Part shown: positions 559 through 61,728 of the stretch, one piece after another
Layout of the letters: each line of letters starts with the position of its first letter
Position numbering within the stretch: the first letter of the stretch is position 1
Assembly (NCBI GenBank): GCA_028687045.1
Contig: JAQUAW010000001.1
Location: 2,034 to 66,033 of the forward strand
DNA from: Patescibacteria group bacterium
Lineage (GTDB): Bacteria; Patescibacteriota; Patescibacteriia; Magasanikbacterales; UBA922
Direction of reading: 5' to 3'
Length of the DNA: 64,000 nt
Notes under the pieces: model-generated
The model's input: the letters and a program-made list of their open reading frames with translations, nothing else
Databases searched by the model: none
Told to the model about the DNA's origin: nothing
Made by a program: the position numbers and the translations under genes

Positions 559-630
559 ATAACCTTCTTAATCTATTTAGCAACATCTTTTAGAATCAAT
601 TAATGATTTATTAAACAAAAACATTTATAC

Positions 631-678
631 TTAAGAAAGATCCCATGTCGAGCTTCGCCGACTTTGGGATTGTGAGAA
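631..678 (-). repeat. Intergenic hairpin repeat, X-type, abutting the gltX start
   Basis: CTTAAGAAAGATCCC…TTCGCCGACTTTGGGAT is the reverse complement of the X consensus GGTCATCCYGAGCCGACGAAGTACGGCGTAAGGATCTTTCTTAAG. Confidence 0.6.
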
Positions 679-681
679 CAT

Positions 682-2139
682 ATGATAAGAACACGTTTTG
701 CACCAAGTCCAACAGGCTATTTACATATTGGTAGTTTGCGTACAGCTCTTTATGCTTATCTTTTTGCACGCAAACATGATGGTAAGTTTTTGCTTCGTAT
801 TGAAGACACTGACCAAGGACGTTTTGTAGAAGGATCTCTTGAAAATATTCTTGAATCATTTGCTTGGACTCACGTTACAATAGATGAAGGAGTCGTTTTG
901 GAAAATGGAGAAATCAAACAAAAAGGTGATAAAGGTCCTTATATTCAATCCGAAAGATTGGAAATTTATCAAAAATATATCAAAGTTTTATTAGAAAAAA
1001 ATGATGCTTATCACTGTTTTTGTAGCAAAGAAAGATTGGACGAAATGCGTAAACAACAAGAAGAAAATAAACTTGCTACAGGTTATGATGGACATTGTCG
1101 TAATTTGACTAAAGAAGAAGTGGATGCAAAACTAGAAAATAAAGAAAGTTTTGTAATTAGAATGAAAATGCCAAAGGAAGGTGTGACTGTAATTGACGAT
1201 ATGGTGCGTGGCCGTGTGGAATTTCAAAACAAGTTAATTGACGATCAAGTTTTGATTAAAGCAGATGGATTTCCAACTTATCATTTTGCGGTAGTAGTAG
1301 ATGATCACTTGATGGAAATTAGTCATGCTATTCGTGCTGAAGAGTGGTTGGCTAGTACTCCAAAACATATTGTGCTTTATAATATGTTTGGTTGGGAAAC
1401 TCCAAAATTTGCTCATTTATCATTGCTCATCAATGAAAAGAAACAAAAACTTTCCAAACGTCATGGTGACGTATCGGTGATTGATTATGTCAAAAAAGGT
1501 TATTTACCTGAGGCTTTTGTTAATTTTATTGCTTTTTTGGGTTGGAATCCAGGTGATGATAGAGAATTTTTTACTTTGGAAGAATTAGAAAAAGAATTTG
1601 ATTTTGCCAAAGTTGGTAAGGCTGCTGCAGTATTTAATATTGAAAAACTAAATTGGTACAACAAACAATATATAATGAAAATGTCGAAAGAAGAATTGGC
1701 TAAAAGATGTGAAAGTTTTTTTCAAGAAAAAAGTGTAGATGTTAGTAGTTTTGATTTAGCAAAAATTGTTGCTTTGGAACAGGGGAGAGCCAATACTTTA
1801 TTTGAAATAGTAGAGAATACTTCCTTTATTTTTGCTTTGCCAGAGTATGAATCGTCTATGCTTGTCTGGAAAAAATCTGATAAAGAAACAACAAAAGTTA
1901 ATTTACAAAAGACTATTGAATTTTTAGAAAATATAACAGGGGAGTGGACACGTGAAAATCTGGAATCTTCTATGCTTACTTGGATAAAAGAGCAAGGATT
2001 AGGTAATGGTGATGTTTTGTGGCCAATGCGTGTTAGTTTGTCTGGTTTACAAAATTCTCCAGGACCTTTGGAAATTGCTGGAGTACTAGGAAAAGAAGAA
2101 ACTTTGACTAGAATGAGACAGGCTGTAGATAAAATTTAG
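682..2139 (+). CDS. gltX: Glutamyl-tRNA synthetase
   Basis: N-terminal RFAPSPTGYLHIGSLRTALY (HIGH motif) and a KLSKR (KMSKS-like) motif. 485 aa. Confidence 0.9.
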   Translation: MIRTRFAPSPTGYLHIGSLRTALYAYLFARKHDGKFLLRIEDTDQGRFVEGSLENILESFAWTHVTIDEGVVLENGEIKQKGDKGPYIQSERLEIYQKYIKVLLEKNDAYHCFCSKERLDEMRKQQEENKLATGYDGHCRNLTKEEVDAKLENKESFVIRMKMPKEGVTVIDDMVRGRVEFQNKLIDDQVLIKADGFPTYHFAVVVDDHLMEISHAIRAEEWLASTPKHIVLYNMFGWETPKFAHLSLLINEKKQKLSKRHGDVSVIDYVKKGYLPEAFVNFIAFLGWNPGDDREFFTLEELEKEFDFAKVGKAAAVFNIEKLNWYNKQYIMKMSKEELAKRCESFFQEKSVDVSSFDLAKIVALEQGRANTLFEIVENTSFIFALPEYESSMLVWKKSDKETTKVNLQKTIEFLENITGEWTRENLESSMLTWIKEQGLGNGDVLWPMRVSLSGLQNSPGPLEIAGVLGKEETLTRMRQAVDKI

Positions 2140-5719: not shown

Positions 5720-6751
5720 TTATTTCCAATAAATTCTATCAGAATAACGTAGATCTATATAATCCAAAAACTTATTTTCATCTTTTATTTTGTCTCTATA
5801 CAAAGCTTCTATTTTATTTATTTGAGATTTCACATCTATATCAAAACGTGTTTTCATATAAAATCCTTTGTATGTTTTTATGGTAAGATCTTGATGGTTA
5901 TCTTCAAATACAAAATATTTTAAAGGAATTTTTTCATTATTATCTAAATTTTTAAACCAAGCTATAATTGAGCTAACTTCATTTTTGTCTAAAACATTTT
6001 GATTGATAGTTACCTCTTGAAAATTATTTTTATCATAAATAATTGGATAATTACCTAAATCTTTTTTTATTGCATTTATGTCAGGTTCATGAAATCTAGC
6101 TATTACTATGGTAGTGGTAACTGTAGTACCATCATTTGTAGTCGTGGCTACATTTTTGGTAATATCTTTCCATTCATAATCACTGGTTTTACGCATTATT
6201 TCTACTATTTTTCCATCTAAATCAACATAGCTATATTCAATTCCATTATCATAGATAATAGTTGATATTTTTTCTTGAATAATAATTTCTAATTTATTAG
6301 GGAAACTTTTTTTGACTATTATTTTTTCTATAGGATATCTATCTTTTATAATATTTTTTATGTCATTAATATTGGCAATTAAATAGCTGTTTTGTTTGAT
6401 AAAACCGAATTTATTATAATTTAATATACCATTCACAGTGTCCAAAAGTTCTGTTTTGTTTATTCTTTGTATTCCTTCAATATTTATATTTTTGATAGAG
6501 AAAAATGGATGAAAAATAAATAAAGAAAATGTAAAAGATAAACTAAAAACTATAATAACTACTTTTAGATAAATATGATTATTGACTTTTTCATGTAAAA
6601 ATGGATTTTCCATTTCTTTGCCTTGCCAAGCAAAATCACGTCTTGTTTTTTTATAATTAAAAAAAGAGCTAAAAAACTTTTTGGTATTTTTTACTTTATG
6701 ATGAAACTTTCTTTGTAGTTTGTGATGATTTATGATTTTTTTGACTGACAT
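5720..6751 (-). CDS. ftsQ: Cell division protein FtsQ/DivIB-like (single TM plus POTRA)
   Basis: Basic N-terminus, one TM helix, then INIEGIQRINKTELLDTV, which is a POTRA signature. Confidence 0.55.
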   Translation of the reverse strand: MSVKKIINHHKLQRKFHHKVKNTKKFFSSFFNYKKTRRDFAWQGKEMENPFLHEKVNNHIYLKVVIIVFSLSFTFSLFIFHPFFSIKNINIEGIQRINKTELLDTVNGILNYNKFGFIKQNSYLIANINDIKNIIKDRYPIEKIIVKKSFPNKLEIIIQEKISTIIYDNGIEYSYVDLDGKIVEIMRKTSDYEWKDITKNVATTTNDGTTVTTTIVIARFHEPDINAIKKDLGNYPIIYDKNNFQEVTINQNVLDKNEVSSIIAWFKNLDNNEKIPLKYFVFEDNHQDLTIKTYKGFYMKTRFDIDVKSQINKIEALYRDKIKDENKFLDYIDLRYSDRIYWK

Positions 6752-6757
6752 AGAGTA

Positions 6758-6803
6758 CGGTCATCCTGAGCCGACGAAGTACGGCGTAAGGATCTTTCTT
6801 AAG
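6758..6803 (+). repeat. X-type hairpin repeat directly upstream of the ftsQ start
   Basis: CGGTCATCCTGAGCCGACGAAGTACGGCGTAAGGATCTTTCTTAAG. Confidence 0.7.
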
Positions 6804-6933
6804 AAGTACTTTTTAGAAATAATTTATGCTAATTGATTCTTATGATTTTGCTAATACTACTTAAAATATAAACATAATAAATTTTCCCCTCCATATTATT
6901 CTGTTAAATATAATTTATATTTTAGAGTTTGTA

Positions 6934-10227: not shown

Positions 10228-11823
10228 TTATTTAGCTAATTCTTGTCTTACGTTATCAGGTATTCTGTTTTCTAATAAAATAACTGATTTTTTATTTTTT
10301 TGATTTTTTATAAATTCTAATAAATCTTTACTACTCAGTTTTACCATAATTTTTGTATTGTATTTTGTTCCTACACCTTTTTTTAAAGGTTCTATGAAAT
10401 CAGGAGTTGTAATGACTAATTCATCAGCTACAAAAGCTACTTCACCACCAATTTGTTCGTGTATTTCATCACTTAGCTCCCCTAGTTCTATTATTCCTCT
10501 AGTAATAACTACTCTATTATATTCATGAGGATAACCAGCTAACATATTTATAGCAACGCGAAAACCATCAGGATTGGAGTTGTAAGTATCATCAATTATA
10601 ATAGCTTTACCATAATTATAAATTTGCAAAGCATGTTTTGGATTTTCTATTTTTTTGACAGCTTCTTTTATTTCTTCAATAGAAAAACCTAAATAATTAG
10701 CAACCAAAAGAGAAGGTGCCAAATTCAAAATATTGTATTCGCCGGTAATTTTTGTTTGTATTTCAATTAAAGTTTCTTTTCCTTCAATTGTTTTTTTGAA
10801 TTTACCAATTATTCCTATTTCATTACTTTTTATATCTTCAATTAGACATGTCGGTTGGTATTCTTCTTCAAAACCAAAAGTTAAAACTTTGGCTTTTATT
10901 TCATCTAAAAATTCTCGACAATACTTGTTGTCAGAATTTGTCACTGCCAAACCATTTTTTGGTAAAAATCTTAATAGCTCATATTTTGCTTTTTGAATGT
11001 TTTCAATAGATCCAAACAAACTTAAGTGCTGAGGACTAATAGCTGTAAGTATGCCAATTTCAGGGTGGACAATATTACAATGTTCTGTCAAATCACCAAC
11101 ATTATAAGCTCCCATTTCAACTATAAAAAAGTCAATATCTTTGAAGTTGTTTTGTAAAATAAATTTACTGATACCAAAATCTGTATTAATATTTTTTGGT
11201 GTGCAAATAACTTTGAATTTGTAAGCGAGTAATTGAGTAAGAATTTCTTTGGTACTAGTTTTACCATAACTACCAGTGATACCTATCACACGTAATTTTT
11301 TTATTTTTTGCAATTTCTTTCTGGCCATTCTAGCGATATGATCTTTGACAAATTGGGAAGCAATATTTAGTAAATGTACTAAAATAGTAATAGTTATAAA
11401 ACGCAAGAAACTAAAAGCAGCAATAGTCCTAATATCTTCTGTCTTTAAATAAAAAGCAATTTCAATTAATACTGAAGAAAAAATTAACAAAATTATTTTC
11501 AAACTAAATTTTGGTTTCTTGATTGGTTTTTTGAGAATTATCTTTGCTAAAAAATATAAAAAGTCCAAAAAGTATATTAGAAAAACTGCCCACTCAATCA
11601 CCAAAAAATAGCTTTGATTCCAAAAAAATACTACCAAAACAAGTGGCATTTTGTAAATAAAATCATAACGGAAAATAATCCGTTTACCTTCAGAAGTGCG
11701 AAGTAAATCCAAAAATCTATCCCAACGATATTCTTTTAGTTGCCAAAAATAAGCAAATTGCAAATATTCATTGCTCATGCTGATTAGCCAAAGTAAAATA
11801 ATGGATAAATCTAAAAGATTCAT
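10228..11823 (-). CDS. Mur ligase family protein (MurF-like) with an N-terminal multi-TM extension
   Basis: IGITGSYGKTSTKE P-loop typical of Mur ligases, with about 170 aa of hydrophobic N-terminus. Confidence 0.6.
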   Translation of the reverse strand: MNLLDLSIILLWLISMSNEYLQFAYFWQLKEYRWDRFLDLLRTSEGKRIIFRYDFIYKMPLVLVVFFWNQSYFLVIEWAVFLIYFLDFLYFLAKIILKKPIKKPKFSLKIILLIFSSVLIEIAFYLKTEDIRTIAAFSFLRFITITILVHLLNIASQFVKDHIARMARKKLQKIKKLRVIGITGSYGKTSTKEILTQLLAYKFKVICTPKNINTDFGISKFILQNNFKDIDFFIVEMGAYNVGDLTEHCNIVHPEIGILTAISPQHLSLFGSIENIQKAKYELLRFLPKNGLAVTNSDNKYCREFLDEIKAKVLTFGFEEEYQPTCLIEDIKSNEIGIIGKFKKTIEGKETLIEIQTKITGEYNILNLAPSLLVANYLGFSIEEIKEAVKKIENPKHALQIYNYGKAIIIDDTYNSNPDGFRVAINMLAGYPHEYNRVVITRGIIELGELSDEIHEQIGGEVAFVADELVITTPDFIEPLKKGVGTKYNTKIMVKLSSKDLLEFIKNQKNKKSVILLENRIPDNVRQELAK

Positions 11824-11828
11824 ATCAT

Positions 11829-12560
11829 TTAATTAGAAAATGTTTTTATTATATTTAATAATTCTTCTTTTTTCCAAAGGTGTAAACCATGTGTACCATT
11901 TTTTATCACTTCAAGTTTTGAACCTACGATATTATTGGCAATTAATTCAGCATCTTTGACAGGAACAAAACTATCTTTGTCTCCCCAGACAATTAGAGTT
12001 GGGATTTTTATTGCTGGTAAAAACTCGCTAACATCTTGCTTATTGATTTTGAGGAAAATATCTCTTTTGATGCCAGTTGTCTTATTGTAGTCCCCTGTTC
12101 CTGCTGATTTGTAAAGTAATTTACGCATAAAACCAGCAAGCTTATTTAGCCCTGGTAAACTAAATACTATTTTACCACTTTTGGCAATAAATTTAAAGAT
12201 TTTATTTCTAATACTTTCTGGTCGACGATAAATAGCAGCGCCACTCAAAATTAATTTATCAACAATGTTTGGTTCGTGAGATAGTAAATAAGAAGCAACT
12301 TGTCCACCAAAACTATGACCAAGCAAAATTGTGGGCTGTCCTTCTTGTTTGAGACTAATTATTTTGTCTTTAACAAACTGTGAGTACTCCTCCACACCCC
12401 AAATTGAGCTAGGACAGCTTTCCTCACCAAAACATGGTAGTTCTATCACTTCTACTTCAAAATCACTCTCCGCCAACAATACAAAATCAGACCAAGTTTG
12501 TTTTGATCCGTTCCAGCCGGGGAGGATAATCAATTTTTTATTTTGTGGAGTGCTCTCCAT
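11829..12560 (-). CDS. Alpha/beta-fold hydrolase
   Basis: GHSFGG nucleophile elbow; 243 aa. Confidence 0.6.
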   Translation of the reverse strand: MESTPQNKKLIILPGWNGSKQTWSDFVLLAESDFEVEVIELPCFGEESCPSSIWGVEEYSQFVKDKIISLKQEGQPTILLGHSFGGQVASYLLSHEPNIVDKLILSGAAIYRRPESIRNKIFKFIAKSGKIVFSLPGLNKLAGFMRKLLYKSAGTGDYNKTTGIKRDIFLKINKQDVSEFLPAIKIPTLIVWGDKDSFVPVKDAELIANNIVGSKLEVIKNGTHGLHLWKKEELLNIIKTFSN

Positions 12561-12602: not shown

Positions 12603-13082
12603 TTATTTTATTGCTTTTTTGACAATACTTTTTATATTATCATCGGCACTAGTTATTTTCAAATTATCTATTTCAGACAAAGGAATCCATTCTAATTTGG
12701 CATTCAACTGTATTTCTTTTTCTTCAAAATTTTGTTCTTTTGCATTACCTACTAATTCACAGACATAAAAAAACTTAATAGCATGTGATGATCCTAAATT
12801 AAATGGCATCTCAAAAAAACGAGTGTTTATTTCTATCAAATCTTTTACTTTAATTTCAAAACCTGTTTCTTCCAAAAATTCTCTACGCAAAGCGTCAATA
12901 TGATCTTCACCGAGTTCAATCCCACCACCAATCAAATAATAACCTAAATCTCCAAATTTTATCATGAAAACTTTATCATCTTTTATTACCACAGCATATA
13001 CTGATGGACGAAAATATAAATCACTAACTTTCATTATTACTTTTTCACCTTCCATATTGTAGCCTTCAACAGTATTTGACAT
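12603..13082 (-). CDS. Nudix hydrolase (paralog A)
   Basis: Nudix box GGGIELGEDHIDALRREFLEETGF. Confidence 0.75.
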   Translation of the reverse strand: MSNTVEGYNMEGEKVIMKVSDLYFRPSVYAVVIKDDKVFMIKFGDLGYYLIGGGIELGEDHIDALRREFLEETGFEIKVKDLIEINTRFFEMPFNLGSSHAIKFFYVCELVGNAKEQNFEEKEIQLNAKLEWIPLSEIDNLKITSADDNIKSIVKKAIK

Positions 13083-13083
13083 A

Positions 13084-13493
13084 TTAGTTTATTGATTTTT
13101 TTATAATAGAAACTAAGTCAGTACTATCACCTATTTTAATTTTTTCTAATTTTGAAAGTTCAACCCATTTTCACAACTGAAAAATATTCTGATAGCATGA
13201 ACATCTTTATTAAATGAAGGATGTCTGAAAAAACTAGTTTGCACATCAATAATTTTCTTTATTTGTACATTATATCCAGTTTCATCTAGTACTTCTCTAC
13301 TTATTGCATTCTCTATTGTTTCTCCCAAGTCTATTCCCCCACCTGGTAAAGAGTATCCAAAATTTTGGCTTATCATTAAGACTTTTTCATCTTTTGTTAC
13401 TATACCATAAACAGAAATTCTCCAACTCAAATCAGAAATATTCATTTCTATTTTGTTTCTATCTTTATCTTCTCCTGTAACAGTTTTGTTCAT
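13084..13493 (-). pseudogene. Nudix hydrolase paralog B, apparently frameshifted near the 3' end
   Basis: The ORF 13146..13493 stops early (…ENGLNFQN*). A different frame just downstream encodes VELSKLEKIKIGDSTDLVSIIKKSIN, which is homologous to the C-terminal tails of paralogs A and C. Confidence 0.45.
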
Positions 13494-13494
13494 A

Positions 13495-13977
13495 TTATTT
13501 TTTAATACAATTTTTTACTATTTCAAGCAATGTACCATCGTCCCCTGCCATTTTTAGATTTTCTATTTCAGATAAATTTACCCACTCCACACTAACATTC
13601 AAAATATTTTCAGACTCAGTCAATTTTATATCTTCTGGATTTTCCGATATTATTTCAGCTTTATAAAATATTTTTATAGTATGACTGTATTTTTCTTTTA
13701 TTGGTGATTTGAAAAAAGCTGTTTGTATATCAAGTAAATCTCCTACTTCCACAGTATAGCCGGTTTCTTCTTTCAATTCTCTTATCAAGGTATCTATGTG
13801 ATCTTCACCAAGATCAATTCCACCACCTGGTAAAAAATAACCATACTTACCAAACTTTGTCATTAATAATTGATTGTCTTTAATTATGATAGCATAAATT
13901 GATGGTCTAAAATATAAATCATCAACATTGATAATTATTTTTTCATTAGATATTGTTAGTCCGTCAACTGTTTTCAT
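13495..13977 (-). CDS. Nudix hydrolase (paralog C)
   Basis: Nudix box GGGIDLGEDHIDTLIRELKEETGY. Confidence 0.75.
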   Translation of the reverse strand: MKTVDGLTISNEKIIINVDDLYFRPSIYAIIIKDNQLLMTKFGKYGYFLPGGGIDLGEDHIDTLIRELKEETGYTVEVGDLLDIQTAFFKSPIKEKYSHTIKIFYKAEIISENPEDIKLTESENILNVSVEWVNLSEIENLKMAGDDGTLLEIVKNCIKK

Positions 13978-13989
13978 GTTTTTTTGTTT

Positions 13990-15249
13990 TTATGCTTTTA
14001 TAGTATCCTTGCCCATAAAATTCTGCAAAACTTTCGGTACTCTAATACTTCCATCCGCTTGCTGATTGTTTTCAAGTATAGCAATTGGAAAACGACTTAG
14101 TACTACAGCTGTACCATTTAGTGTATGCACAAATTCATTTTTGCCTTCCTCATTTTTATATTTGATATTTAATCTTCTTGCTTGATAATCTGTACAGTTA
14201 CTGGTACTAGTGATTTCACCATAACCACCTTTAGCTTCATCTTCAGCTTTCATCGTCATCCAAGCTTCAATATCATATTTGCGGTAAGCAGGACCACCAA
14301 GATCGCTAGTTGGAATGTCAATAACGCGATAAGGAATTTCTAAACCATCACAGATTTCTTTTTCAATACTTAATAATTCTTGATGCAAGGTTTCACTTTC
14401 TTCTGGTTTACAGAAAATAAACATTTCTAATTTGGTAAATTGATGCACACGATAAAGACCTTTGCTAGTGCGACCATAAGCTCCAGCTTCAGTACGGAAA
14501 CAGTGAGACATAGCAGCATATTTCTTTGGTCCAGAGCTCAAATCCAAAACTTCGTCAGCATGATAGCCGAGCATTGTAATTTCTGCAGTGCCAACTAAAC
14601 TCAAACCTTCATCATTAATATTATAAATTTGTTTTTCTGCTCCACGAGGATTGAAACCAGCACCAAGCAAAATTTCATGCTTAGCTAAATCTGGAGTTTC
14701 GACAAGATTGTAACCGTGTTTTGCCAAAATATCCATGCCGTAATTTAGCATCGCTTGGTTTAGTCTGACCATATCATTTTTGACAAAGTAAAACTTACTA
14801 CCAGTTACTTTGGCACCACGTTCGAAATCTATCAAATCAAGATTGATCATAAGTTCTTCATGATCTTTGGCAGGAAAATCAAAGTTTGGAATAGTTCCAC
14901 GTTCTTCGACTGTGACAAAATCTTCTTCGCCACCAATCGGACTTTGTGGATGAGTCATATTTGGTACTTGGAGCATTAGTTCCATAAAATCAGCATCAAC
15001 TTTTGCTAGTTCTTCTTCCAAAGATTTTATTTTCTCCCCTACTTCACGCATTTGTTTTATTTCTTCATCAGTTGGTTTACCTTTTGATCCACTATTTCTT
15101 TTTGAACGTAGTTCTTCTACTTCTTGCATTTTTTCTCTTTTTTGTTTGTCCAAATCAAGAAGAGTATCAATATTTATTTTGACTCTTCTATTTACACAAT
15201 TTTGTTTTATGAGTTCGCTATTGTCGCGAATGAATTTTATGTCGAGCAT
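13990..15249 (-). CDS. serS: Seryl-tRNA synthetase. The likely true start is the second Met (MLDIKFIRDN…); the ORF track extends to 15264.
   Basis: N-terminal coiled coil and class II motifs (FRTEAGAYGRTSKGLYRVHQF, GTAV…SR). Confidence 0.9.
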   Translation of the reverse strand: MLDIKFIRDNSELIKQNCVNRRVKINIDTLLDLDKQKREKMQEVEELRSKRNSGSKGKPTDEEIKQMREVGEKIKSLEEELAKVDADFMELMLQVPNMTHPQSPIGGEEDFVTVEERGTIPNFDFPAKDHEELMINLDLIDFERGAKVTGSKFYFVKNDMVRLNQAMLNYGMDILAKHGYNLVETPDLAKHEILLGAGFNPRGAEKQIYNINDEGLSLVGTAEITMLGYHADEVLDLSSGPKKYAAMSHCFRTEAGAYGRTSKGLYRVHQFTKLEMFIFCKPEESETLHQELLSIEKEICDGLEIPYRVIDIPTSDLGGPAYRKYDIEAWMTMKAEDEAKGGYGEITSTSNCTDYQARRLNIKYKNEEGKNEFVHTLNGTAVVLSRFPIAILENNQQADGSIRVPKVLQNFMGKDTIKA

Positions 15250-15258
15250 ATGGGCAAT

Positions 15259-15302
15259 GGTCATCCCGATCCGCCGAAGGACGGAAAGGGATCTTTCTTA
15301 AA
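15259..15302 (+). repeat. X-type repeat overlapping the serS 5' end
   Basis: GGTCATCCCGATCCGCCGAAGGACGGAAAGGGATCTTTCTTAAA. It has compensatory stem changes relative to copy 6758..6803. Confidence 0.7.
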
Positions 15303-15370
15303 TATAAATGTTTTTAAAATAATTGACGTTAATTGATTCTAAAAAATGTTTTTGAATAAATAAAAGTTAT

Positions 15371-15416
15371 CAGGGTCTACAGATCCATCATCGTATTCTC
15401 GACTCAGGATGACATT
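15371..15416 (-). repeat. Y-type repeat, the inverted partner of 15259..15302
   Basis: CAGGGTCTACAGATCCATCATCGTATTCTCGACTCAGGATGACATT. Confidence 0.65.
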
Positions 15417-16465
15417 GAATTACAATACTCAATCAACTCTGGCAAAATTTCTTGATATAACTTATTATTGGCTCCAATCATATCTTCGTCTCCTGCTTTT
15501 TCCAAATCAAACCATTCAATTCCCAAAGTCTCGGCGTCAGATATTTCGTTAATGTTGGAAATTACTTTACAAAGCATTGGTACTAGATACACTTGATATT
15601 TTACAACTGAATCTAACTGAGCTTCAACATATATTTTGCTGAGTTGTCTGACTACTTCTACCACATAGCCAACCTCTTCTTGAGTTTCTCTAATTACATT
15701 TGTTTCAAATGTTTCACCAAGTTCCATACTGCCACCTGGGAATTCCCACTTGTTATGGTAGTCTGGTCGATGGGGGTCATTCCTCTTGGACATAAGAATT
15801 TTTCCATTGTCTACAATGATGGCAAGTGGAACAACGATGTGTTTGACACCATACTGATTTTGTAAATAATATTTTATTTTTATCAAAGCTTTGCCGCGGT
15901 GACTTGTTGCATTTTTTTCATTCGGTGTTAGTTCTGCATAAGTTTTTCCTAAATCTTCCAAATAAAATATTGGATCATAGCCCCAAGCAGTCTCTGTGTC
16001 TACACGTTTTTCTAATACCACCCCTTCTCTTACTCCGGTATTAGAAAAAAAACTTTTTTGTTGAGGGTCATAACAAACAAGACAAGATTTGAACTGTGCT
16101 TGTCTTTTTTCTAGTGGGACATCTTTTAATTTTTCTAGTAAAATATTTATACGTTCATCAGCATCAGCACCTACTCGAGCACTAATTACTCCAGGCCAAC
16201 CATCCAAAGCATCTACAAAAATTCCACCATCGTCAGCAATACTCATTAGACCTGTTTTTTCAGCGTAGTATTTGGCTTTAAGCACGGCATTGGCTTCTAT
16301 GGTACTTTCTGTTTCTTCAGGCTCTACTATTTTTTCGGGTAATTCAGCTAGAGACAAAAAATTAAATGGCAAATCTGCCAAAAATTTTTTCATTTCTCTG
16401 AATTTACCTTCATTGGTAGTAGCGATTAATATTTTTCTTTTTTCTTCTGTCATAAGGTTTTTCAC
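15404..16465 (-). CDS. Fusion protein: an RdgB/Ham1-type non-canonical NTP pyrophosphatase (N-terminal) joined to a Nudix hydrolase (C-terminal)
   Basis: N-terminus ILIATTNEGKFREMKKFL with a Ham1-like layout. C-terminus FPGGSMELGETFETNVIRETQEEVGY is a Nudix box. Confidence 0.65.
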   Translation of the reverse strand: MKNLMTEEKRKILIATTNEGKFREMKKFLADLPFNFLSLAELPEKIVEPEETESTIEANAVLKAKYYAEKTGLMSIADDGGIFVDALDGWPGVISARVGADADERINILLEKLKDVPLEKRQAQFKSCLVCYDPQQKSFFSNTGVREGVVLEKRVDTETAWGYDPIFYLEDLGKTYAELTPNEKNATSHRGKALIKIKYYLQNQYGVKHIVVPLAIIVDNGKILMSKRNDPHRPDYHNKWEFPGGSMELGETFETNVIRETQEEVGYVVEVVRQLSKIYVEAQLDSVVKYQVYLVPMLCKVISNINEISDAETLGIEWFDLEKAGDEDMIGANNKLYQEILPELIEYCNSMSS

Positions 16466-16506
16466 AATCCCGAACCCGAGGAACGAGGGAAGGGATCTTT
16501 CTTAAA
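16462..16506 (+). repeat. X-type repeat at the start of the RdgB-Nudix gene
   Basis: TCACAATCCCGAACCCGAGGAACGAGGGAAGGGATCTTTCTTAAA. Confidence 0.7.
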
Positions 16507-16584
16507 TTAAAATTTTTAGAAAATACTTATGTTAATTGATTTTGAAAAACATGCAATTGAAATAGGTATTTTTATTATCACGTT

Positions 16585-16624
16585 TTGACAAATTTCTCCG
16601 CCAAATCGGCGGATCAATTTGTCA
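16585..16624. promoter_or_regulatory. Split palindrome TTGACAAATT–(22-bp GC hairpin)–AATTTGTCA
   Basis: The same half-sites recur at 33788..33809 and 50728..50752. Confidence 0.45.
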
Positions 16625-16628
16625 TTCC

Positions 16629-17048
16629 TTATGTTTTTTCTAATAACTTTTTTCTTATCTCCCCAGACTTATGTTGTTCTGGTTTGTAAGATTTCAACCG
16701 AACAACTTTTGTGTTCAATCTAAATTCTTTGATTTTTTCTTCTAATTTATCAATAAAATTTTGTTGATCATAACCAAGAGCTATTACATCTGGTTTTTCA
16801 GTTTTGATAACTTTGTAATAATCTATTTTATTTCCTAAAACAGCTTGGTCAATTATTCTTATATTTTTCAAGAATTCTAATCTCTCTTTTTCGTTATGAA
16901 CTAAAGTAATTTTCTTTATTTTTTTTGAAGTAATATCTCTTCCAACTACAACCACTAAATAACTCCCTAGTTTCTTGGCTTGTTTGAAAAGATTCAAGTG
17001 TCCCAAATGTACAATATCAAATGTTCCAAAGACCATTACTTTTTTCAT
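16629..17048 (-). CDS. Cytidylyltransferase-like nucleotidyltransferase (HxGH family)
   Basis: FGTFDIVHLGH motif; 139 aa. Confidence 0.55.
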   Translation of the reverse strand: MKKVMVFGTFDIVHLGHLNLFKQAKKLGSYLVVVVGRDITSKKIKKITLVHNEKERLEFLKNIRIIDQAVLGNKIDYYKVIKTEKPDVIALGYDQQNFIDKLEEKIKEFRLNTKVVRLKSYKPEQHKSGEIRKKLLEKT

Positions 17049-17056
17049 AAATAAAA

Positions 17057-18556
17057 TTATTTCTTTTTTTCATCTTTCTCTTCCACTTCTTCTACAGGTT
17101 TCATAAGTGGAAAAGCTGTAACTTCACGCAAAGTATGTGAACCAGTGATAAGAGCTGCAAATCTATCAATACCAATACCAGTGCCTGTAGCTGGAGGCAT
17201 GCCGTGTTCTAGAGCTTCTACATAACTCCAGTCGTTGGCCATAGCTTCATCATCCCCTTCTGCTTTATTTTTTACTTGTTCTTCAAATCTTTCACGTTGA
17301 TCGATTGGATCGTTTAGCTCTGTATAAGAATTACTAAGCTCAAAACCATTGACGATAAGTTGGAACATTTCAGTATATCTTGGATCTTCAGCTTTTTTGG
17401 CTAGAGGTTTGAGTTCAATTGGATAATTCAAGACAAAAGTTGGTTGAATCAATTCTTTGCGAGCTGATTGTTTGTATAAATTATCAAGCAATTTTCCACG
17501 TTCGGTAAGATTTTCATGATCATAACCTTTGGCTGACATGACTTTTTTCAATTCTTCCAAATCTGTAAATTCATCAATATCAATACCAGAATATTTGAGA
17601 ACTGCATCATGAAAAGTAATACGAGGATATGGACCTGCAAAATTTATTTTGTGTTCATCGACTTCTACTTCCAATTTACCTATAGAATTTTCAACGACAT
17701 AAGGAATCAATTTTTCATGCAAGGTCATGTTGTCTTCATAATCAGCATAAGCCCAATAATATTCAAGCATGGTAAATTCTGGATTGTGTTGGTGGTCAAC
17801 GCCTTCATTGCGGAAAGCTCTACCCATTTCAAAAGTTTTTTCAAAACCACCTACCAACAATCTTTTTTGCCAAAGCTCACCCATACAAATACGTAAATGC
17901 ACATCTAAATCATAAGCATTCAAGTGTGTATCAAAAGTACGAGCCATAGCACCAGAAGAAATAGTTTCAAGCACTGGTGTTTCTACTTCAATAAAATTTT
18001 CATTTTGTAAAAATTCACGAATATAACGTAATATTTTTCCACGAACAATAATTTTGGCTTTTTCTTCTGGGTTGACCAAAAGATCCAAATATCTCTTACG
18101 ATAGCGCACTTCTTCATCATTCAAACCATGAAATTTGTCTGGCAGTGGTAATAAAGTTTTTGCGAGTAGTGTCCAAGAACTAACCAAGATAGAAGGTTCG
18201 CCTTTGTGTGTCATGAATTTTTTGCCTTGAACTTCAACAATATCACCTGAATCAATTTTTTTACTAAATAATTTGTAATTGTCAATTCCAATGTCATCTT
18301 GCTTAAAAGCTATTTGCATTCTGCCTGATTCATCTTGTAAATGACAAAACATAAGCTTTCCCATATCACGCTTTGTCATAAGACGTCCAGCAACACTAAG
18401 TTCAGCATCTTCTTTTGCGTCAAGAGCTTCTTTTATAGTTTGTTTACGATTTATTCTAGCAGGATAAATACTTATATTCATTTCCTGAAGTTCTTTCAAT
18501 TTACGAAGACGTATTTCACGCTCGTCATTGATATTGATTTCTATATTATTTGTCAT
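17057..18556 (-). CDS. lysS: Lysyl-tRNA synthetase, class II
   Basis: OB-fold N-terminus and class II motifs (FRNEGVDHQHNPEFTMLE, GIGIDR). Confidence 0.9.
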   Translation of the reverse strand: MTNNIEININDEREIRLRKLKELQEMNISIYPARINRKQTIKEALDAKEDAELSVAGRLMTKRDMGKLMFCHLQDESGRMQIAFKQDDIGIDNYKLFSKKIDSGDIVEVQGKKFMTHKGEPSILVSSWTLLAKTLLPLPDKFHGLNDEEVRYRKRYLDLLVNPEEKAKIIVRGKILRYIREFLQNENFIEVETPVLETISSGAMARTFDTHLNAYDLDVHLRICMGELWQKRLLVGGFEKTFEMGRAFRNEGVDHQHNPEFTMLEYYWAYADYEDNMTLHEKLIPYVVENSIGKLEVEVDEHKINFAGPYPRITFHDAVLKYSGIDIDEFTDLEELKKVMSAKGYDHENLTERGKLLDNLYKQSARKELIQPTFVLNYPIELKPLAKKAEDPRYTEMFQLIVNGFELSNSYTELNDPIDQRERFEEQVKNKAEGDDEAMANDWSYVEALEHGMPPATGTGIGIDRFAALITGSHTLREVTAFPLMKPVEEVEEKDEKKK

Positions 18557-18621
18557 AGCTATTTAACTTAAATTTAGGCTAATTTACTGACTTATTGTAA
18601 CAGATTTCTTTCAAAAATACA

Positions 18622-18646
18622 AATACTCCCAAGAAGGGAGTATTTT
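18622..18646. terminator. Rho-independent terminator between greA and lysS
   Basis: TACTCCCaagaaGGGAGTA hairpin followed by a T run. Confidence 0.6.
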
Positions 18647-18768
18647 GGCTAATTAAAGATAATTTTTTCAAAATAAGACTTTAGTTCTTAACTAAGTGTA
18701 TATAAAGCAGATACAGCAAGTACAACCTATATAACTATAATTAAAACCTAATACCTAAAACCTAATAA

Positions 18769-47804: not shown

Positions 47805-48191
47805 TTAAATAGTTAAACTTTTTTTTAAATTTGTCAATTGTGTTTTCACACTAGCATCCAATATTTTATCTTCTATTTTCACTCTAATACCACCTATCAA
47901 ATTTTTATCAATCTTTTCTTGAACAAAAACTTCTTTACCAAAAGATTCTTTAATTTTTTTGATAATTTCACTATCCAAATCTCTTGCAGAAGTTACTTCC
48001 AATTCAACTATTCCTTGTTTCTTCTTAAGAATAGTTTCAAATTCAGCTATAATATTATTGGTTTGTTTTATTTTGTGTTTTTTAGCTAGTAGACCCACAA
48101 AATTTTTCAAAACAATATCTAAATCACTAGCATTCAAACCAATAGTCAATTCGTAAAGAGCTTCAGCAAATTGTTTATTAGAAATTTTCAT
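47805..48191 (-). CDS. atpH: F1 ATP synthase delta (OSCP) subunit, short form
   Basis: C-terminal IGGIRVKIEDKILDASV is typical of delta. It sits between atpF and atpA. Confidence 0.65.
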   Translation of the reverse strand: MKISNKQFAEALYELTIGLNASDLDIVLKNFVGLLAKKHKIKQTNNIIAEFETILKKKQGIVELEVTSARDLDSEIIKKIKESFGKEVFVQEKIDKNLIGGIRVKIEDKILDASVKTQLTNLKKSLTI

Positions 48192-48200
48192 ATATTTACG

Positions 48201-48243
48201 TCATTCCGACCCGCCGAATCGGCGGGGAGGGATATTTCTTAAA
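48201..48243 (+). repeat. X-type repeat upstream of the atpH start
   Basis: TCATTCCGACCCGCCGAATCGGCGGGGAGGGATATTTCTTAAA, with the perfect inner stem CCCGCCGA/TCGGCGGG. Confidence 0.65.
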
Positions 48244-48308
48244 TCTAAATTATTTTAATTTACAAAACTTTCAAATGATTCTAAAATACTTTTTCAATTA
48301 ATTTATTA

Positions 48309-60438: not shown

Positions 60439-61362
60439 ATGCAAAAAATAAAAATCATTTTCTTTGGAACACACGAATTTGCCAAAACAATTTTACAAGG
60501 ACTTATTGATAGTTCTCTTTTTGAAATAGAAAAAGTCATTACCCAACCAGACAAACCAGTTGGACGTAAACAAATTTTGCAAAAATCCCCTGTTAAAATT
60601 CTAGCCGAAGAATTTGGATTAGAAATTGATCAACCAGAAAGCTTAAAAAACTACGAACTATTGGTTAATGACTCTGAACTATTCATCGTCGCTCAATATG
60701 GTCTACTCATTCCTGAAAACATTTTGAATATTCCAAAATTTGGAACAATAAATACTCACACTTCCCTACTACCAAAATATCGTGGAGCTTCACCTATTCA
60801 ATCAGCAATTTTCAATGGTGAAAAAGAAACAGGTGTCACCATCATGCTAATGGACAGAGGTATGGACTCTGGGCCTATTTTGAGCCAAAAAACAGTACCA
60901 ATACTAGCAGATGAAACTTATATAGATTTAGATGAAAAAATGGCGCAAATCGCCTCACAATTGCTTCTAGATACAATACCAAAGTATATTGACGATGAAA
61001 TAAAGCCACAAACTCAAAATGAAGCTGAAATAACATTTTGTAAAAAATTAGACAGAGATGATGGTAAAATTGATTGGAAAAAATCTACATCAGAAATTTA
61101 CAATCAATATCGTGCTTTCACACCATGGCCAGGTGTCTGGACTACTTGGAATGACAAACGTCTAAAACTTTTGAAAATGTATCCCAGTGATAAAAAAATA
61201 GAAACTGGTAAAGTATCTATAGAAAATGGTAAAATATATATTGGCACTATCGACAGTTCTTTAGAAATACTGGAATTACAATTAGAAGGAAAACCTTCTA
61301 TGATGGTCTCAGTGTTTATAAATGGTTATGGTAAAAATTTTGATAACACTCTCCTAAAATAA
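60439..61362 (+). CDS. fmt: Methionyl-tRNA formyltransferase
   Basis: N-terminal formyltransferase motifs (INTHTSLLPKYRGASPIQ) and a C-terminal OB-like domain. Confidence 0.9.
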   Translation: MQKIKIIFFGTHEFAKTILQGLIDSSLFEIEKVITQPDKPVGRKQILQKSPVKILAEEFGLEIDQPESLKNYELLVNDSELFIVAQYGLLIPENILNIPKFGTINTHTSLLPKYRGASPIQSAIFNGEKETGVTIMLMDRGMDSGPILSQKTVPILADETYIDLDEKMAQIASQLLLDTIPKYIDDEIKPQTQNEAEITFCKKLDRDDGKIDWKKSTSEIYNQYRAFTPWPGVWTTWNDKRLKLLKMYPSDKKIETGKVSIENGKIYIGTIDSSLEILELQLEGKPSMMVSVFINGYGKNFDNTLLK

Positions 61363-61370
61363 CCAATTTT

Positions 61371-61413
61371 GTCATCCTGAACCGACGAAGTACGGTGAAG
61401 GATCTTTCCTAAA
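61371..61413 (+). repeat. X-type repeat between fmt and the GIY-YIG gene
   Basis: GTCATCCTGAACCGACGAAGTACGGTGAAGGATCTTTCCTAAA. Confidence 0.7.
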
Positions 61414-61437
61414 ATAATTTTAATTAATAAATAATTT

Positions 61438-61728
61438 ATGGGAGGAAATAATTATTATGTTTATATAATGACAAGTATAAGTGGCGTTTTATATATTGGG
61501 GTTACAAATGATTTAAGACGTCGAGTGATTGAACATAAAAATGAATTAATAGATGGTTTTACAAAAAAATATAAATGTCATAAGTTAGTGTACTACGAAT
61601 ATTTTACTGATATAAATTATGCCATTCGACGTGAAAAAGAATTAAAAGGTTGGAAAAGAATCAAAAAAATAGAATTAATTAAAAAAGATAATTATAATTT
61701 AATTGATTTATTTCCGAAAATTAATTAG
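61438..61728 (+). CDS. Small stand-alone GIY-YIG nuclease (YhbQ/UPF0213-like)
   Basis: YYVYIMTS…VLYIGVTNDLRRRVIEH…; 96 aa. Confidence 0.8.
   Translation: MGGNNYYVYIMTSISGVLYIGVTNDLRRRVIEHKNELIDGFTKKYKCHKLVYYEYFTDINYAIRREKELKGWKRIKKIELIKKDNYNLIDLFPKIN

What the first reader, a model, noticed from the sequence alone, without database searches (positions are those of the whole stretch)
12603..16465. Nucleotide-sanitation island: three tandem Nudix paralogs, one frameshifted, then serS, then an RdgB/Ham1-Nudix fusion
Seen: 12603..13977 holds three homologous Nudix genes. The middle one reads through into another frame that restores the conserved C-terminal tail, so it is either a pseudogene, a sequencing error or a programmed shift. 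The gene upstream of serS fuses a Ham1/RdgB ITPase fold to a fourth Nudix domain.
Inference: an unusual concentration and fusion of house-cleaning pyrophosphatases. This could reflect heavy reliance on scavenged nucleotides, as expected for a reduced-genome symbiont. The fusion could also be a bifunctional enzyme acting on modified or signalling nucleotides.
Basis: partly seen in the sequence, partly recalled or inferred. Interest (0 to 1): 0.5.

Follow-up and report, generated by a model that had tools for sequence, protein, structure and literature searches.

The report
Ham1–Nudix fusion plus decaying Nudix trio
This stretch of a tiny-genome groundwater bacterium (Magasanikbacteria) carries a lineage-wide fused two-domain "nucleotide-cleaning" enzyme and three old Nudix gene copies, one freshly broken by a 70-base deletion; it is real and tidy, but mostly ordinary.

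Summary

- **The "frameshift" is a deletion.** nudB lacks 70 bp relative to an intact, 92%-identical ortholog. The loss removes 23 codons, including an invariant Glu and core strands. It is a young pseudogene, not a programmed shift.
- **The three Nudix genes are old paralogs.** They share 39-50% aa identity, whereas orthologs in other genomes are 88-96% identical. Related genomes keep 0-3 copies in the same serS|hydrolase slot.
- **The fusion is real.** It is one ORF in about 70 species-level Magasanikbacteria genomes, always within greA-lysS-cytidylyltransferase-fusion-serS. Catalytic motifs of both domains are conserved. The Ham1 half passes the RdgB model cut-off. The Nudix half is only MutT-like and falls below cut-off.
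- **Likely function (inferred).** A bifunctional sanitiser of the nucleotide pool.

Two things seen in passing may be more interesting. A covarying stem-loop leader precedes serS, the fusion and other genes. In other Patescibacteria, LeuRS genes carry Nudix and/or Ham1 domains as internal insertions.

The parts
12603..13082 (-). nudC: intact 159-aa Nudix hydrolase, clade C of a COG1051-type family (NCBI MDD2655956.1)
   Evidence: Pfam NUDIX E=2.8e-15. It is 96% identical to the single Nudix in L010. dN/dS against that ortholog is 0.08.
13084..13493 (-). nudB pseudogene. The 5' part (13146-13493) reads as a 115-aa ORF ending at a premature TAG. The 3' tail (13084-13167) is in another frame. The 70-bp deletion junction lies at about 13168/13169.
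   Evidence: Alignment with intact orthologs (A2) and the length difference of 410 vs 480 nt. The deletion removes residues 109-132 of the ortholog P0244, including invariant E124 (A8). In the AF2 model (pLDDT 94) it removes the end of strand 97-112, helix 122-125 and part of strand 130-135.
13495..13977 (-). nudA: intact 160-aa Nudix hydrolase, clade A (NCBI MDD2655958.1)
   Evidence: Pfam NUDIX E=3.6e-16. Orthologs in L001, L003 and L009 are 88-91% identical. The best solved relative is 2pqv, of unknown function.
13990..15249 (-). serS (seryl-tRNA synthetase). The likely true start is the ATG at 15249 (MLDIKF...); the mechanical ORF runs on to 15264.
   Evidence: Pfam Seryl_tRNA_N plus tRNA-synt_2b. 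The start is placed by the leader layout shared with five other copies.
15245..15340 (-). Copy of a repeated ~95-nt leader element (conserved boxes plus a two-tier stem-loop) immediately upstream of serS
15404..16453 (-). Ham1/RdgB-Nudix fusion gene, 349 aa from the ATG at 16453 (NCBI MDD2655960.1). The mechanical ORF from a GTG at 16465 gives 353 aa.
   Evidence: Pfam, NCBIfam TIGR00042 159.7 bits against a cut-off of 145.35, and more than 120 homolog clusters of ~345 aa with both domains. The exact 349-aa protein is on record. AF2 pLDDT is 90.8.
15872..16432 (-). Ham1/RdgB (ITPase) domain of the fusion
   Evidence: Pfam residues 12-198. It is 40% identical to E. coli RdgB 1k7k, with a TM-score normalised to target length (TMt) of 0.85.
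15458..15835 (-). Nudix domain of the fusion: complete Nudix box and a clade-specific KRNDPHRPxYHxKWEFPGG signature
   Evidence: Pfam residues 211-336. Invariant columns are listed in A3. The best solved relatives are of the MutT, MutT2, CTPase and BdRppH types.
16448..16543 (-). Second copy of the leader element, upstream of the fusion gene
16629..17048 (-). Small cytidylyl/adenylyltransferase-like gene ('ctp', 139 aa), the conserved upstream neighbour of the fusion
   Evidence: Pfam CTP_transf_like. Best PDB match is 3glv, E=3e-30. It lies next to the fusion in nearly all of ~70 loci, and the two stop-to-stop ORFs often overlap.
11829..12560 (-). Alpha/beta hydrolase, the conserved downstream border of the variable slot
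   Evidence: Pfam Abhydrolase_1; synteny

Best explanation
The region is a conserved housekeeping block of a Candidatus Magasanikbacteria (Patescibacteria) genome, with gene order lysS - small nucleotidyltransferase - Ham1/Nudix fusion - serS. A variable slot follows, between serS and an alpha/beta-hydrolase gene.

**The fusion.** It is a single 349-aa protein. An RdgB-type ITP/XTP/dITP pyrophosphatase domain is joined by a short, conserved linker to a MutT-like Nudix domain. Most likely it is a bifunctional 'house-cleaning' enzyme. It would convert two classes of damaged nucleoside tri- or diphosphates to monophosphates, so that polymerases do not incorporate them. This would suit an organism that salvages rather than makes its nucleotides.

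**The slot.** In this lineage it holds an old three-member family (A, B, C) of COG1051-type Nudix hydrolases of unknown substrate. They lie downstream of the serS leader with no further copy of it before 6840, so they are probably transcribed with serS. Related genomes retain different subsets. Here copy B has just been inactivated by a 70-bp deletion and is a young pseudogene.

Shown: the anatomy, conservation, domain identity, the deletion, and the age of the paralogs. Inferred: the enzymatic activities, the bifunctionality, and co-transcription.
For: **Fusion.**
- Both Pfam domains are present, and the N-terminal half exceeds the NCBIfam RdgB/HAM1 cut-off.
- The residues aligned with E. coli RdgB K13, K53 and R87, and the DD, FGYDP and SHR motifs, are conserved.
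- The fold matches RdgB with TMt 0.85-0.90.
- The Nudix box G-x5-E-x7-REUxEExGU is complete. E259, E262 and E263 are invariant across 30 homologs that share 44-93% identity.
- More than 120 protein clusters and about 70 species-level genomes carry it as one ORF in the same gene order.

**Deletion.**
- A 70-nt gap against L003, with about 96% identical flanks.
- It removes an invariant Glu and core secondary structure.
- dN/dS of the remnant is 0.24, like its intact neighbours, so the lesion is recent.
- An independent assembler (Logan, run SRR22315507) gives an identical 1522-bp contig that includes the deletion.

**Paralog age and differential retention.** The tree and identity matrix are, and DNA identity is 60-80%. 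Slot content is A+B in L001 and L003, A in L009, C in L010, B in L007 and L016, and none in about 40 loci.

**Precedent for cooperation.** Mammalian ITPA (Ham1 family) and NUDT16 (Nudix) jointly clear ITP/dITP and IDP/dIDP (PMC2875033, PMC2919730).
Against: - No biochemical data exist for any member.
- The Nudix half scores below the MutT equivalog cut-off (57 vs 97.9 bits). Only its N-terminal half aligns to MutT.
- That half carries an invariant, unexplained signature (RNDPH...H..WEFPGG, C298). Its substrate could be something other than an oxidised or deaminated nucleotide.
- pTM of 0.63 leaves the inter-domain geometry uncertain.
- Some Magasanikbacteria have lost or truncated the Nudix half (L077, L062). 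The pairing is therefore not obligatory.
- The Logan contig may derive from the same reads as the MAG. The deletion is thus replicated across assemblers, not across samples.
- Promoter and terminator scans were uninformative in this AT-rich DNA.
Confidence: 0.7

Rival explanations
1. The Ham1 and Nudix modules of Patescibacteria are functionally tied to aminoacyl-tRNA synthetases rather than to general pool sanitation. They might remove aaRS by-products (Ap4A or other NpnN), or keep non-canonical NTPs away from amino-acid activation. On this view the lysS...serS flanks are meaningful.
For: - The fusion lies between lysS-ctp and serS in essentially all of ~70 genomes.
- In other Patescibacteria, LeuRS itself carries a Nudix domain and/or a Ham1 domain as internal insertions. 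L086 has both (Pfam). Among 94 LeuRS ORFs from metagenomes, 14 have Nudix only, 7 have Ham1 only and 2 have both.
- An Ap4A hydrolase (3i7u) is among the structural neighbours.
Against: - The whole greA-to-Mur-ligase block is syntenic. Adjacency to two aaRS genes may simply be inherited order.
- RdgB-type enzymes are not known to act on Ap4A.
- The Tyr that, from my recollection of the Nudix subfamily rules, marks ApnA hydrolases downstream of the Nudix box is not conserved in A3.
- Insertions into essential proteins could merely secure constitutive expression.
Confidence: 0.15
2. The nudB lesion is an assembly or sequencing artefact, and the gene is intact in the organism.
For: Only one MAG contig and one 100%-identical Logan contig carry it. 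These may come from the same reads. The remnant shows no further decay.
Against: - A clean 70-bp loss with 1-2 nt of microhomology is not a typical homopolymer or indel error.
- Two different assemblers agree.
- The flanks are unique sequence, not a repeat that would collapse.
Confidence: 0.1
3. The stand-alone Nudix genes serve the downstream cell-wall genes (for example hydrolysis of UDP-sugar or UDP-MurNAc-peptide), or they are phage-defence genes. On this view they are not nucleotide sanitisers.
For: - They sit in one same-strand string with the hydrolase, Mur ligase, DegT and two FemAB genes. No leader copy occurs between serS and 6840.
- The slot is hypervariable. B alleles are only 61% identical between genomes whose fusion proteins are identical.
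- There is a weak PADLOC PDC-S07 match.
Against: - About 40 related genomes have the same cell-wall string with no Nudix.
- The PDC-S07 match is generic. It is strongest (67.6 bits) for the clearly housekeeping fusion domain.
- No other defence genes are nearby.
- There is no subfamily-level match to a nucleotide-sugar hydrolase.
Confidence: 0.1
4. The middle gene is expressed through a programmed ribosomal frameshift.
For: The downstream frame stays open to a stop at 13084 and encodes the conserved tail.
Against: - Orthologs are in-frame and 23 codons longer.
- There is no X_XXY_YYZ slippery heptamer at the junction (TGTGAAAATGGG).
- The product would lack an invariant Glu and core strands.
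Confidence: 0.01
5. The Ham1-Nudix 'fusion' is two genes joined by an assembly or indel error.
For: One related assembly (L079) has the two halves in separate ORFs.
Against: - L079 also has a fragmented serS and lysS, so it is a poor assembly.
- About 70 independent genomes and more than 120 protein clusters have a single ~345-aa ORF with a conserved linker (YLQNxYGxKHIVVP).
Confidence: 0.01

Closest known systems
E. coli RdgB / yeast Ham1 / human ITPA (ITP/XTP/dITP pyrophosphatases)
   Same: The N-terminal 200 aa are 40% identical to RdgB. They have the same fold (TMt 0.85-0.90) and the same triphosphate-binding and catalytic motifs, and they exceed the TIGR00042 cut-off.
   Different: RdgB and ITPA are single-domain proteins. 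This one carries a C-terminal Nudix domain. No solved chain spans both domains; the best TM-score normalised to query length is 0.52.
MutT / NudG / MutT2-type Nudix NTP pyrophosphohydrolases
   Same: The Nudix box is complete, with a 'WEFPGG' entry like the MutT LEFPGGK. These are the best sequence and structure neighbours.
   Different: It scores below the MutT equivalog cut-off. The C-terminal half does not align. It has a clade-specific invariant RNDPH-x4-H insertion and a conserved Cys. The substrate is unknown.
Mammalian ITPA + NUDT16 pair
   Same: A Ham1-family and a Nudix enzyme cooperate on the same damaged-purine pool, one acting on tri- and the other on diphosphates (PMC2875033, PMC2919730). 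This gives a functional logic for fusing the two folds.
   Different: They are separate proteins in mammals. The fusion's Nudix domain shows no specific NUDT16 similarity: no Pfam Nudt16-like hit, and no NUDT16 among the top 50 structures.
S. pneumoniae MutT/nudix family protein 2pqv and COG1051/YjhB-type Nudix proteins
   Same: 2pqv is the best solved sequence relative of nudA, nudB and nudC. It shares the N-terminal beta-hairpin extension. Source names for homologs are generic, such as 8-oxo-dGTP diphosphatase or YjhB.
   Different: No characterised member exists. Identity is only about 25-30%.
NadM-Nudix and PPAT/NTPase bifunctional proteins (NCBIfam NF003791, NF002250)
   Same: They are precedents for pairing a small nucleotidyltransferase with a Nudix or NTPase module. 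Here the nucleotidyltransferase-like gene is the constant upstream neighbour.
   Different: Here the transferase is a separate gene. In this window a leader element also separates it from the fusion. Scores against those models are far below their cut-offs.

Membership tests
RdgB/HAM1 non-canonical purine NTP pyrophosphatase | Curated family models matched above threshold | tested here: met
   Pfam PF01725 scores 174.6 bits against a cut-off of 22.5. NCBIfam TIGR00042 scores 159.7 against 145.35.
RdgB/HAM1 non-canonical purine NTP pyrophosphatase | Triphosphate-binding Lys/Lys/Arg (E. coli K13, K53, R87) and the DD, FGYDP and SHR motifs | tested here: met
   The pairwise alignment to 1k7k shows TTNEGK, LKAK, ISAR, ADDGG, WGYDPIF and TSHRG. 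These columns are invariant or nearly invariant in A3. Residue roles are taken from PMC3899018.
RdgB/HAM1 non-canonical purine NTP pyrophosphatase | ITPase fold | tested here: met
   The AF2 model has pLDDT 90.8. Foldseek gives TMt 0.85-0.90 and rmsd ~2 A to 1k7k, 2q16 and 3tqu.
RdgB/HAM1 non-canonical purine NTP pyrophosphatase | Hydrolysis of dITP/ITP/XTP to NMP + PPi | not testable with these tools
   An enzyme assay is needed.
Nudix hydrolase superfamily | Nudix box G-x5-E-x7-R-E-U-x-E-E-x-G-U | tested here: met
   Fusion: GSMELGETFETNVIRETQEEVGY. nudA: GGIDLGEDHIDTLIRELKEETGY. nudC: GGIELGEDHIDALRREFLEETGF. nudB and its intact ortholog read ...REVLDETGY, with Asp replacing the first Glu of the EE pair.
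MutT 8-oxo-dGTP diphosphatase (equivalog) | Score above the curated equivalog cut-off; full-length alignment including the base-recognition region | tested here: not met
   TIGR00586 scores 57.1 bits against a cut-off of 97.9 for the fusion, and 19-27 bits for the stand-alone genes. PDB MutT alignments cover only the first ~60 residues of the domain.
NUDT16-like (deoxy)inosine diphosphatase | Pfam Nudt16-like (PF22327) above cut-off | tested here: not met
   There is no hit for the fusion. nudA and nudB score 19 bits against a cut-off of 27.
Programmed ribosomal frameshift gene | The shift is conserved in orthologs, a slippery site is present, and the full-length trans-frame product is homologous throughout | tested here: not met
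   Orthologs are in-frame. The 70-bp deletion removes 23 codons. There is no slippery heptamer.
Recent tandem duplication | Paralogs closer to each other than to orthologs elsewhere; high DNA identity | tested here: not met
   Paralogs share 39-50% aa identity, against 88-96% for A and C orthologs. The tree has three clades spanning several genomes. DNA identity is 60-80%.
Anti-phage defence Nudix (PADLOC PDC-S07) | A specific match, plus a defence-island context | tested here: inconclusive
   The matches are generic: 31-39 bits for the stand-alone genes and 67.6 bits for the housekeeping fusion domain. The neighbours are aaRS and cell-wall genes.

The most novel reading that the evidence does not exclude
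In Patescibacteria, Ham1 (ITPase) and Nudix modules form a conserved partnership with aminoacyl-tRNA synthetases. In Magasanikbacteria they appear as a didomain gene locked between lysS and serS. In some Paceibacteria-like genomes they appear as domains inserted into LeuRS itself. They would act at the site of amino-acid activation, for instance by destroying NpnN by-products or excluding ITP/XTP. The shared structured leader upstream of serS and the fusion would co-regulate them.
Probability: 0.15. Interest if true: 0.65.

Novelty: new variant of a known kind. Interest (0 to 1): 0.33.

Why it matters
If the didomain protein is truly bifunctional, it is a compact two-in-one nucleotide-pool sanitiser. 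It is conserved across a whole candidate phylum-level lineage of ultra-small, nucleotide-scavenging bacteria. It would be a natural fusion of the two enzyme folds that mammals use side by side (ITPA and NUDT16/MTH1). That makes it a convenient system for asking how damaged-nucleotide clearance is organised when genomes are minimal.

The broken middle gene and the 0-3 copy variation give a small, clean example of ongoing gene loss. On its own, though, the finding is a well-behaved case of known enzyme families with automatic annotations already in public databases.

Tried and rejected
- **Programmed frameshift:** rejected. Orthologs are in-frame, 70 bp are missing, and there is no slippery site.
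- **Recent tandem duplication or gene conversion:** rejected.
- **Fusion as an assembly artefact:** rejected by conservation.
- **Defence-system reading:** PADLOC gave only generic Nudix matches.
- **Known RNA elements:** Rfam gave none, either at gathering threshold over the whole window or at E<=1 over 15200-16600. There are no tRNAs.
- **Sigma-70 promoter and terminator scan:** uninformative in 30% GC DNA.
- **Substrate assignment for the stand-alone Nudix genes:** NCBIfam, PDB sequence search and Foldseek gave only generic Nudix neighbours.
- **Literature:** searches for a described Ham1-Nudix fusion, Magasanikbacteria Nudix, or aaRS-Nudix/Ham1 insertions found nothing relevant. The library is limited to open-access papers.
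- **nudC homolog search:** a single-sequence search found only 6 relatives because of the word index. The profile search reached 465.
- **Source contig:** the NCBI source contig itself could not be retrieved; only the 1.5-kb Logan contig was available.

Full report
**What is there**

All genes of the region lie on the minus strand. Pfam identifies them as follows:
- a Mur ligase (10228-11823);
- an alpha/beta hydrolase (11829-12560);
- three NUDIX ORFs (12603-13082, 13146-13493, 13495-13977);
- seryl-tRNA synthetase (13990-15264);
- a Ham1p_like + NUDIX ORF (15404-16465);
- a small cytidylyltransferase-like gene (16629-17048).

lysS and greA follow, upstream on the coding strand. A Pfam pass over 58 large ORFs finds exactly four NUDIX proteins in the 64 kb. 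The remainder is housekeeping: aaRS genes, ATP synthase, MreB, a PBP and FemAB.

**Source**

The exact proteins are on record from one 68,348-bp NCBI MAG contig labelled 'Patescibacteria group bacterium'. They are MDD2655956.1, MDD2655957.1, MDD2655958.1 and MDD2655960.1. The closest relatives are named Candidatus Magasanikbacteria.

**The 'frameshifted' middle gene**

Syntenic loci from close relatives were recovered through the fusion protein. L003 carries an intact 159-aa ortholog of the middle gene, 92% identical at the protein level. Against it, the window sequence lacks a contiguous 70 nt and is otherwise about 96% identical (alignment A2; 410 vs 480 nt). The junction is at about 13168/13169 (TGTGAAA|ATGGG).

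Because 70 = 3x23+1, the loss removes 23 codons and also shifts the frame. This explains why the conserved tail (WVELS...SIN, 13167-13084) appears in another frame.

The deleted segment corresponds to residues 109-132 of the ortholog. It contains a Glu that is invariant across 49 homologs (A8). In a confident AF2 model (pLDDT 94.2) it covers the end of one core strand, a short helix and half of the next strand. Even a frame-restored product would be crippled.

There is no slippery heptamer, and orthologs are in-frame, so a programmed shift is excluded.

dN/dS of the remnant against L003 is 0.24, similar to nudA (0.18-0.19). No secondary lesions are present. The deletion is therefore recent.

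An independent assembly of run SRR22315507 (Logan) gives a 1522-bp contig that is 100% identical, including the deletion. This argues against an assembler artefact. It may not be an independent sample, however. NCBI annotated the 115-aa remnant as an ordinary NUDIX protein.

**Age and dynamics of the Nudix trio**

The three copies share only 43-50% amino-acid identity and 60-80% DNA identity. A tree that includes homologs from related genomes resolves three clades:
- Clade A: window nudA, plus L001, L003 and L009, at 88-91%.
- Clade C: window nudC, plus L010 at 96% and three metagenomic proteins.
- Clade B: the window remnant and L003 at 92%. A more divergent B2 group comes from L001, L007 and L016.

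The triplication therefore long predates these strains. It is not a recent tandem duplication.

The order is always A, then B, then C. Related genomes keep A+B, A only, B only, C only or none. This fits differential loss from an ancestral array. The N-terminus of the L010 copy (MKTV...) looks like nudA joined to a nudC body, consistent with recombination between paralogs. The window shows the next loss in progress.

The family has hundreds of relatives at 30-45% identity, all carrying generic names. No curated model or solved structure assigns a substrate.

**The fusion**

The 353-aa mechanical ORF most likely starts at the ATG at 16453, giving 349 aa (MTEEKRK...). That matches the length of homologs and the NCBI protein.

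*Ham1 half:*
- It exceeds the RdgB/HAM1 equivalog cut-off.
- It is 40% identical to E. coli RdgB.
- It conserves the Lys/Lys/Arg triphosphate site and the DD, FGYDP and SHR motifs.
- It superposes on RdgB structures at TMt 0.85-0.90.

*Nudix half:*
- It has a complete Nudix box with invariant catalytic glutamates.
- Its nearest relatives are MutT, MutT2, CTP pyrophosphohydrolase and BdRppH.
- It scores below the MutT cut-off.
- It carries a clade-specific invariant signature (KRNDPHRPxYHxKWEFPGG, plus a conserved Cys).

I therefore file the Nudix half only as 'MutT-like, substrate unknown'.

The linker (YLQNxYGxKHIVVP) is conserved. No PDB chain covers both domains.

The architecture is not an artefact. 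The best 120 of 263 homologous clusters all have both domains at ~345 aa. A scan of species-representative genomes found about 70 full-length copies, nearly all in Magasanikbacteria. Many of those records carry a default 'uncultured Gammaproteobacteria' title but share the same synteny.

Exceptions are informative. L077 has cleanly lost the Nudix half, L062 is truncated, and L079 is split in a visibly fragmented assembly.

I found no paper that describes this fusion. The closest functional precedent is the mammalian ITPA + NUDT16 pair, which together clear ITP/dITP and IDP/dIDP.

**Is it an 'island'?**

In every locus with enough flank, the order greA-lysS-ctp-fusion-serS-hydrolase-Mur ligase is conserved. 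The fusion's position next to serS is thus inherited clade-wide synteny.

The stand-alone Nudix genes occupy a variable slot between serS and the hydrolase. Of 57 loci, about 40 have nothing there. Others carry unrelated cargo:
- an IS200-like transposase;
- a SemiSWEET-like PQ-loop protein;
- an asparaginase-like gene;
- an Excalibur-like gene;
- unknown membrane proteins.

Nudix genes of other subfamilies nevertheless occupy the same slot in L040, L067 and L068. ADPRase-like Nudix ORFs sit in a second slot, between lysS and ctp, in L020, L030, L031 and L047. No other Nudix ORF was found anywhere else in the ~13-kb neighbourhoods. Recurrent co-localisation with the fusion is therefore real, although it rests on only a handful of independent events.

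**Transcription units and a repeated leader**

A ~95-nt element precedes both serS and the fusion. It consists of an AGAATCAATTAA box, about 25 AT-rich nt, TTAAGAAAG, a two-tier stem-loop, and then about 12 nt before the ATG.

Further copies lie before three other genes, and there is one orphan copy. The window positions are 592-687(+), 6745-6840(-), 15245-15340(-), 16448-16543(-), 48187-48282(-) and 61358-61449(-). The 16-mer core occurs 7 times, against 2.1 expected by chance.

Twelve distinct copies, six of them from related loci, each fold on their own into the same structure. Base pairs covary:
- In the outer helix, a C-G pair occurs six times and a U-A pair five times.
- The inner stem reads GUCG/CGAC, GCCG/CGGC, UCCG/CGGA, ACCG/CGGU, GCUG/CAGC or UCUG/CAGA.

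Rfam has no match.

If this element marks transcript 5' ends, the fusion has its own unit. serS would then lead a long unit containing nudA, the nudB remnant, nudC, the hydrolase and the cell-wall genes. This is inference only.

**A lead beyond the window**

One hit of the genome scan is L086, a Paceibacterota MAG. It encodes a ~1207-aa LeuRS with two internal insertions:
- a NUDIX domain after the editing domain;
- a Ham1 domain (E=8e-59) between the catalytic core and the anticodon-binding domain.

Both inserted domains keep their motifs.

A metagenome scan then recovered 94 LeuRS ORFs. Of these, 14 have the Nudix insertion, 7 have the Ham1 insertion and 2 have both. This raises the possibility that Ham1/Nudix modules are linked to aaRS function in Patescibacteria. 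That would make the lysS...serS flanks here meaningful. I rate this at about 15%, because conserved synteny alone would give the same picture.

**Verdict**

The fusion is a previously uncharacterised but already auto-annotated variant of known house-cleaning enzymes. The Nudix trio is an old family undergoing loss. Interest is modest. The leader element and the aaRS-embedded Ham1/Nudix domains are the more unusual by-products of this analysis.

Noticed in passing
window 592-687(+), 6745-6840(-), 15245-15340(-), 16448-16543(-), 48187-48282(-), 61358-61449(-); also L001 11194-11289, 19233-19315 and 19404-19519, L016 7079-7171, L034 7117-7210, L062 6845-6921: A repeated ~95-nt leader sits directly upstream of start codons. 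It has conserved boxes (AGAATCAATTAA ... TTAAGAAAG) followed by a two-tier stem-loop with clear compensatory base changes. There is no Rfam match. It may be a promoter plus 5'-UTR hairpin, or a translational control element, specific to this Magasanikbacteria subclade.
   Followed up: partly
L086 3433-7053(+); L088 1-3939; Ham1-only insertion in L089-L094 and L101; Nudix-only insertion in L095, L110, L111, L115, L139, L141, L143, L148, L152, L154, L162-L164 and L167: Leucyl-tRNA synthetases of other Patescibacteria carry two kinds of internal insertion. One is a NUDIX domain after the editing domain. The other is a Ham1/ITPase domain between the catalytic core and the anticodon-binding domain. 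L086 and L088 have both. No literature on this was found.
   Followed up: partly
serS|hydrolase junction in L003, L009, L015, L035-L037, L040, L042, L054, L067, L068 and L078; lysS|ctp junction in L020, L030, L031 and L047: Two insertion hot spots flank the conserved ctp-fusion-serS core. Cargo includes an IS200-like transposase, a SemiSWEET-like PQ-loop protein, an asparaginase-like gene, an Excalibur-like gene and unknown membrane proteins. Nudix genes of at least three other subfamilies also turn up there repeatedly.
   Followed up: partly
L010 vs window 13700-18650; L001 and L003 vs window: The identity pattern is mosaic. L010 is 91-92% identical to the window in lysS-ctp and serS, but only ~70% in the fusion gene and ~73% upstream. 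L001 and L003 encode identical fusion proteins, yet their B-type Nudix alleles are only 61% identical. This suggests recombination or allele exchange within the block.
   Followed up: no
L077 5986-6588; L062 5986-6852: Two Magasanikbacteria genomes have lost (L077, 201 aa) or truncated (L062) the Nudix half of the fusion while keeping the Ham1 half. The fusion is therefore dispensable in some lineages.
   Followed up: no
window 15249 and 16453: The mechanical ORF starts are probably 5 and 4 codons too long: ATG at 15264 for serS and GTG at 16465 for the fusion. The leader layout and homolog lengths place the true starts at 15249 (MLDIKF...) and 16453 (MTEEKRK...).
   Followed up: yes
window 61358-61449(-), between fmt (60439-61362,+) and a 96-aa ORF at 61438-61728(+): This is an orphan copy of the leader element. 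It points into the 3' end of the formyltransferase gene, and no ORF lies downstream on its strand. It could be a relic, an antisense transcript or a small RNA.
   Followed up: no
window, ORFs between ~26000 and 55000 (exact genes not mapped): Pfam reports Complex1_49kDa, NADHdh and two Proton_antipo_M subunits alongside F-type ATP synthase genes. A complex-I or Mrp/hydrogenase-like module is not what one usually expects in a Patescibacteria genome.
   Followed up: no
window 16629-17048(-): The small nucleotidyltransferase next to the fusion is closest to the Thermoplasma protein 3glv (E=3e-30) and to TagD/RfaE-II-type enzymes. In most related genomes its stop-to-stop ORF overlaps that of the fusion. 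Its substrate and any link to the fusion are unknown.
   Followed up: partly
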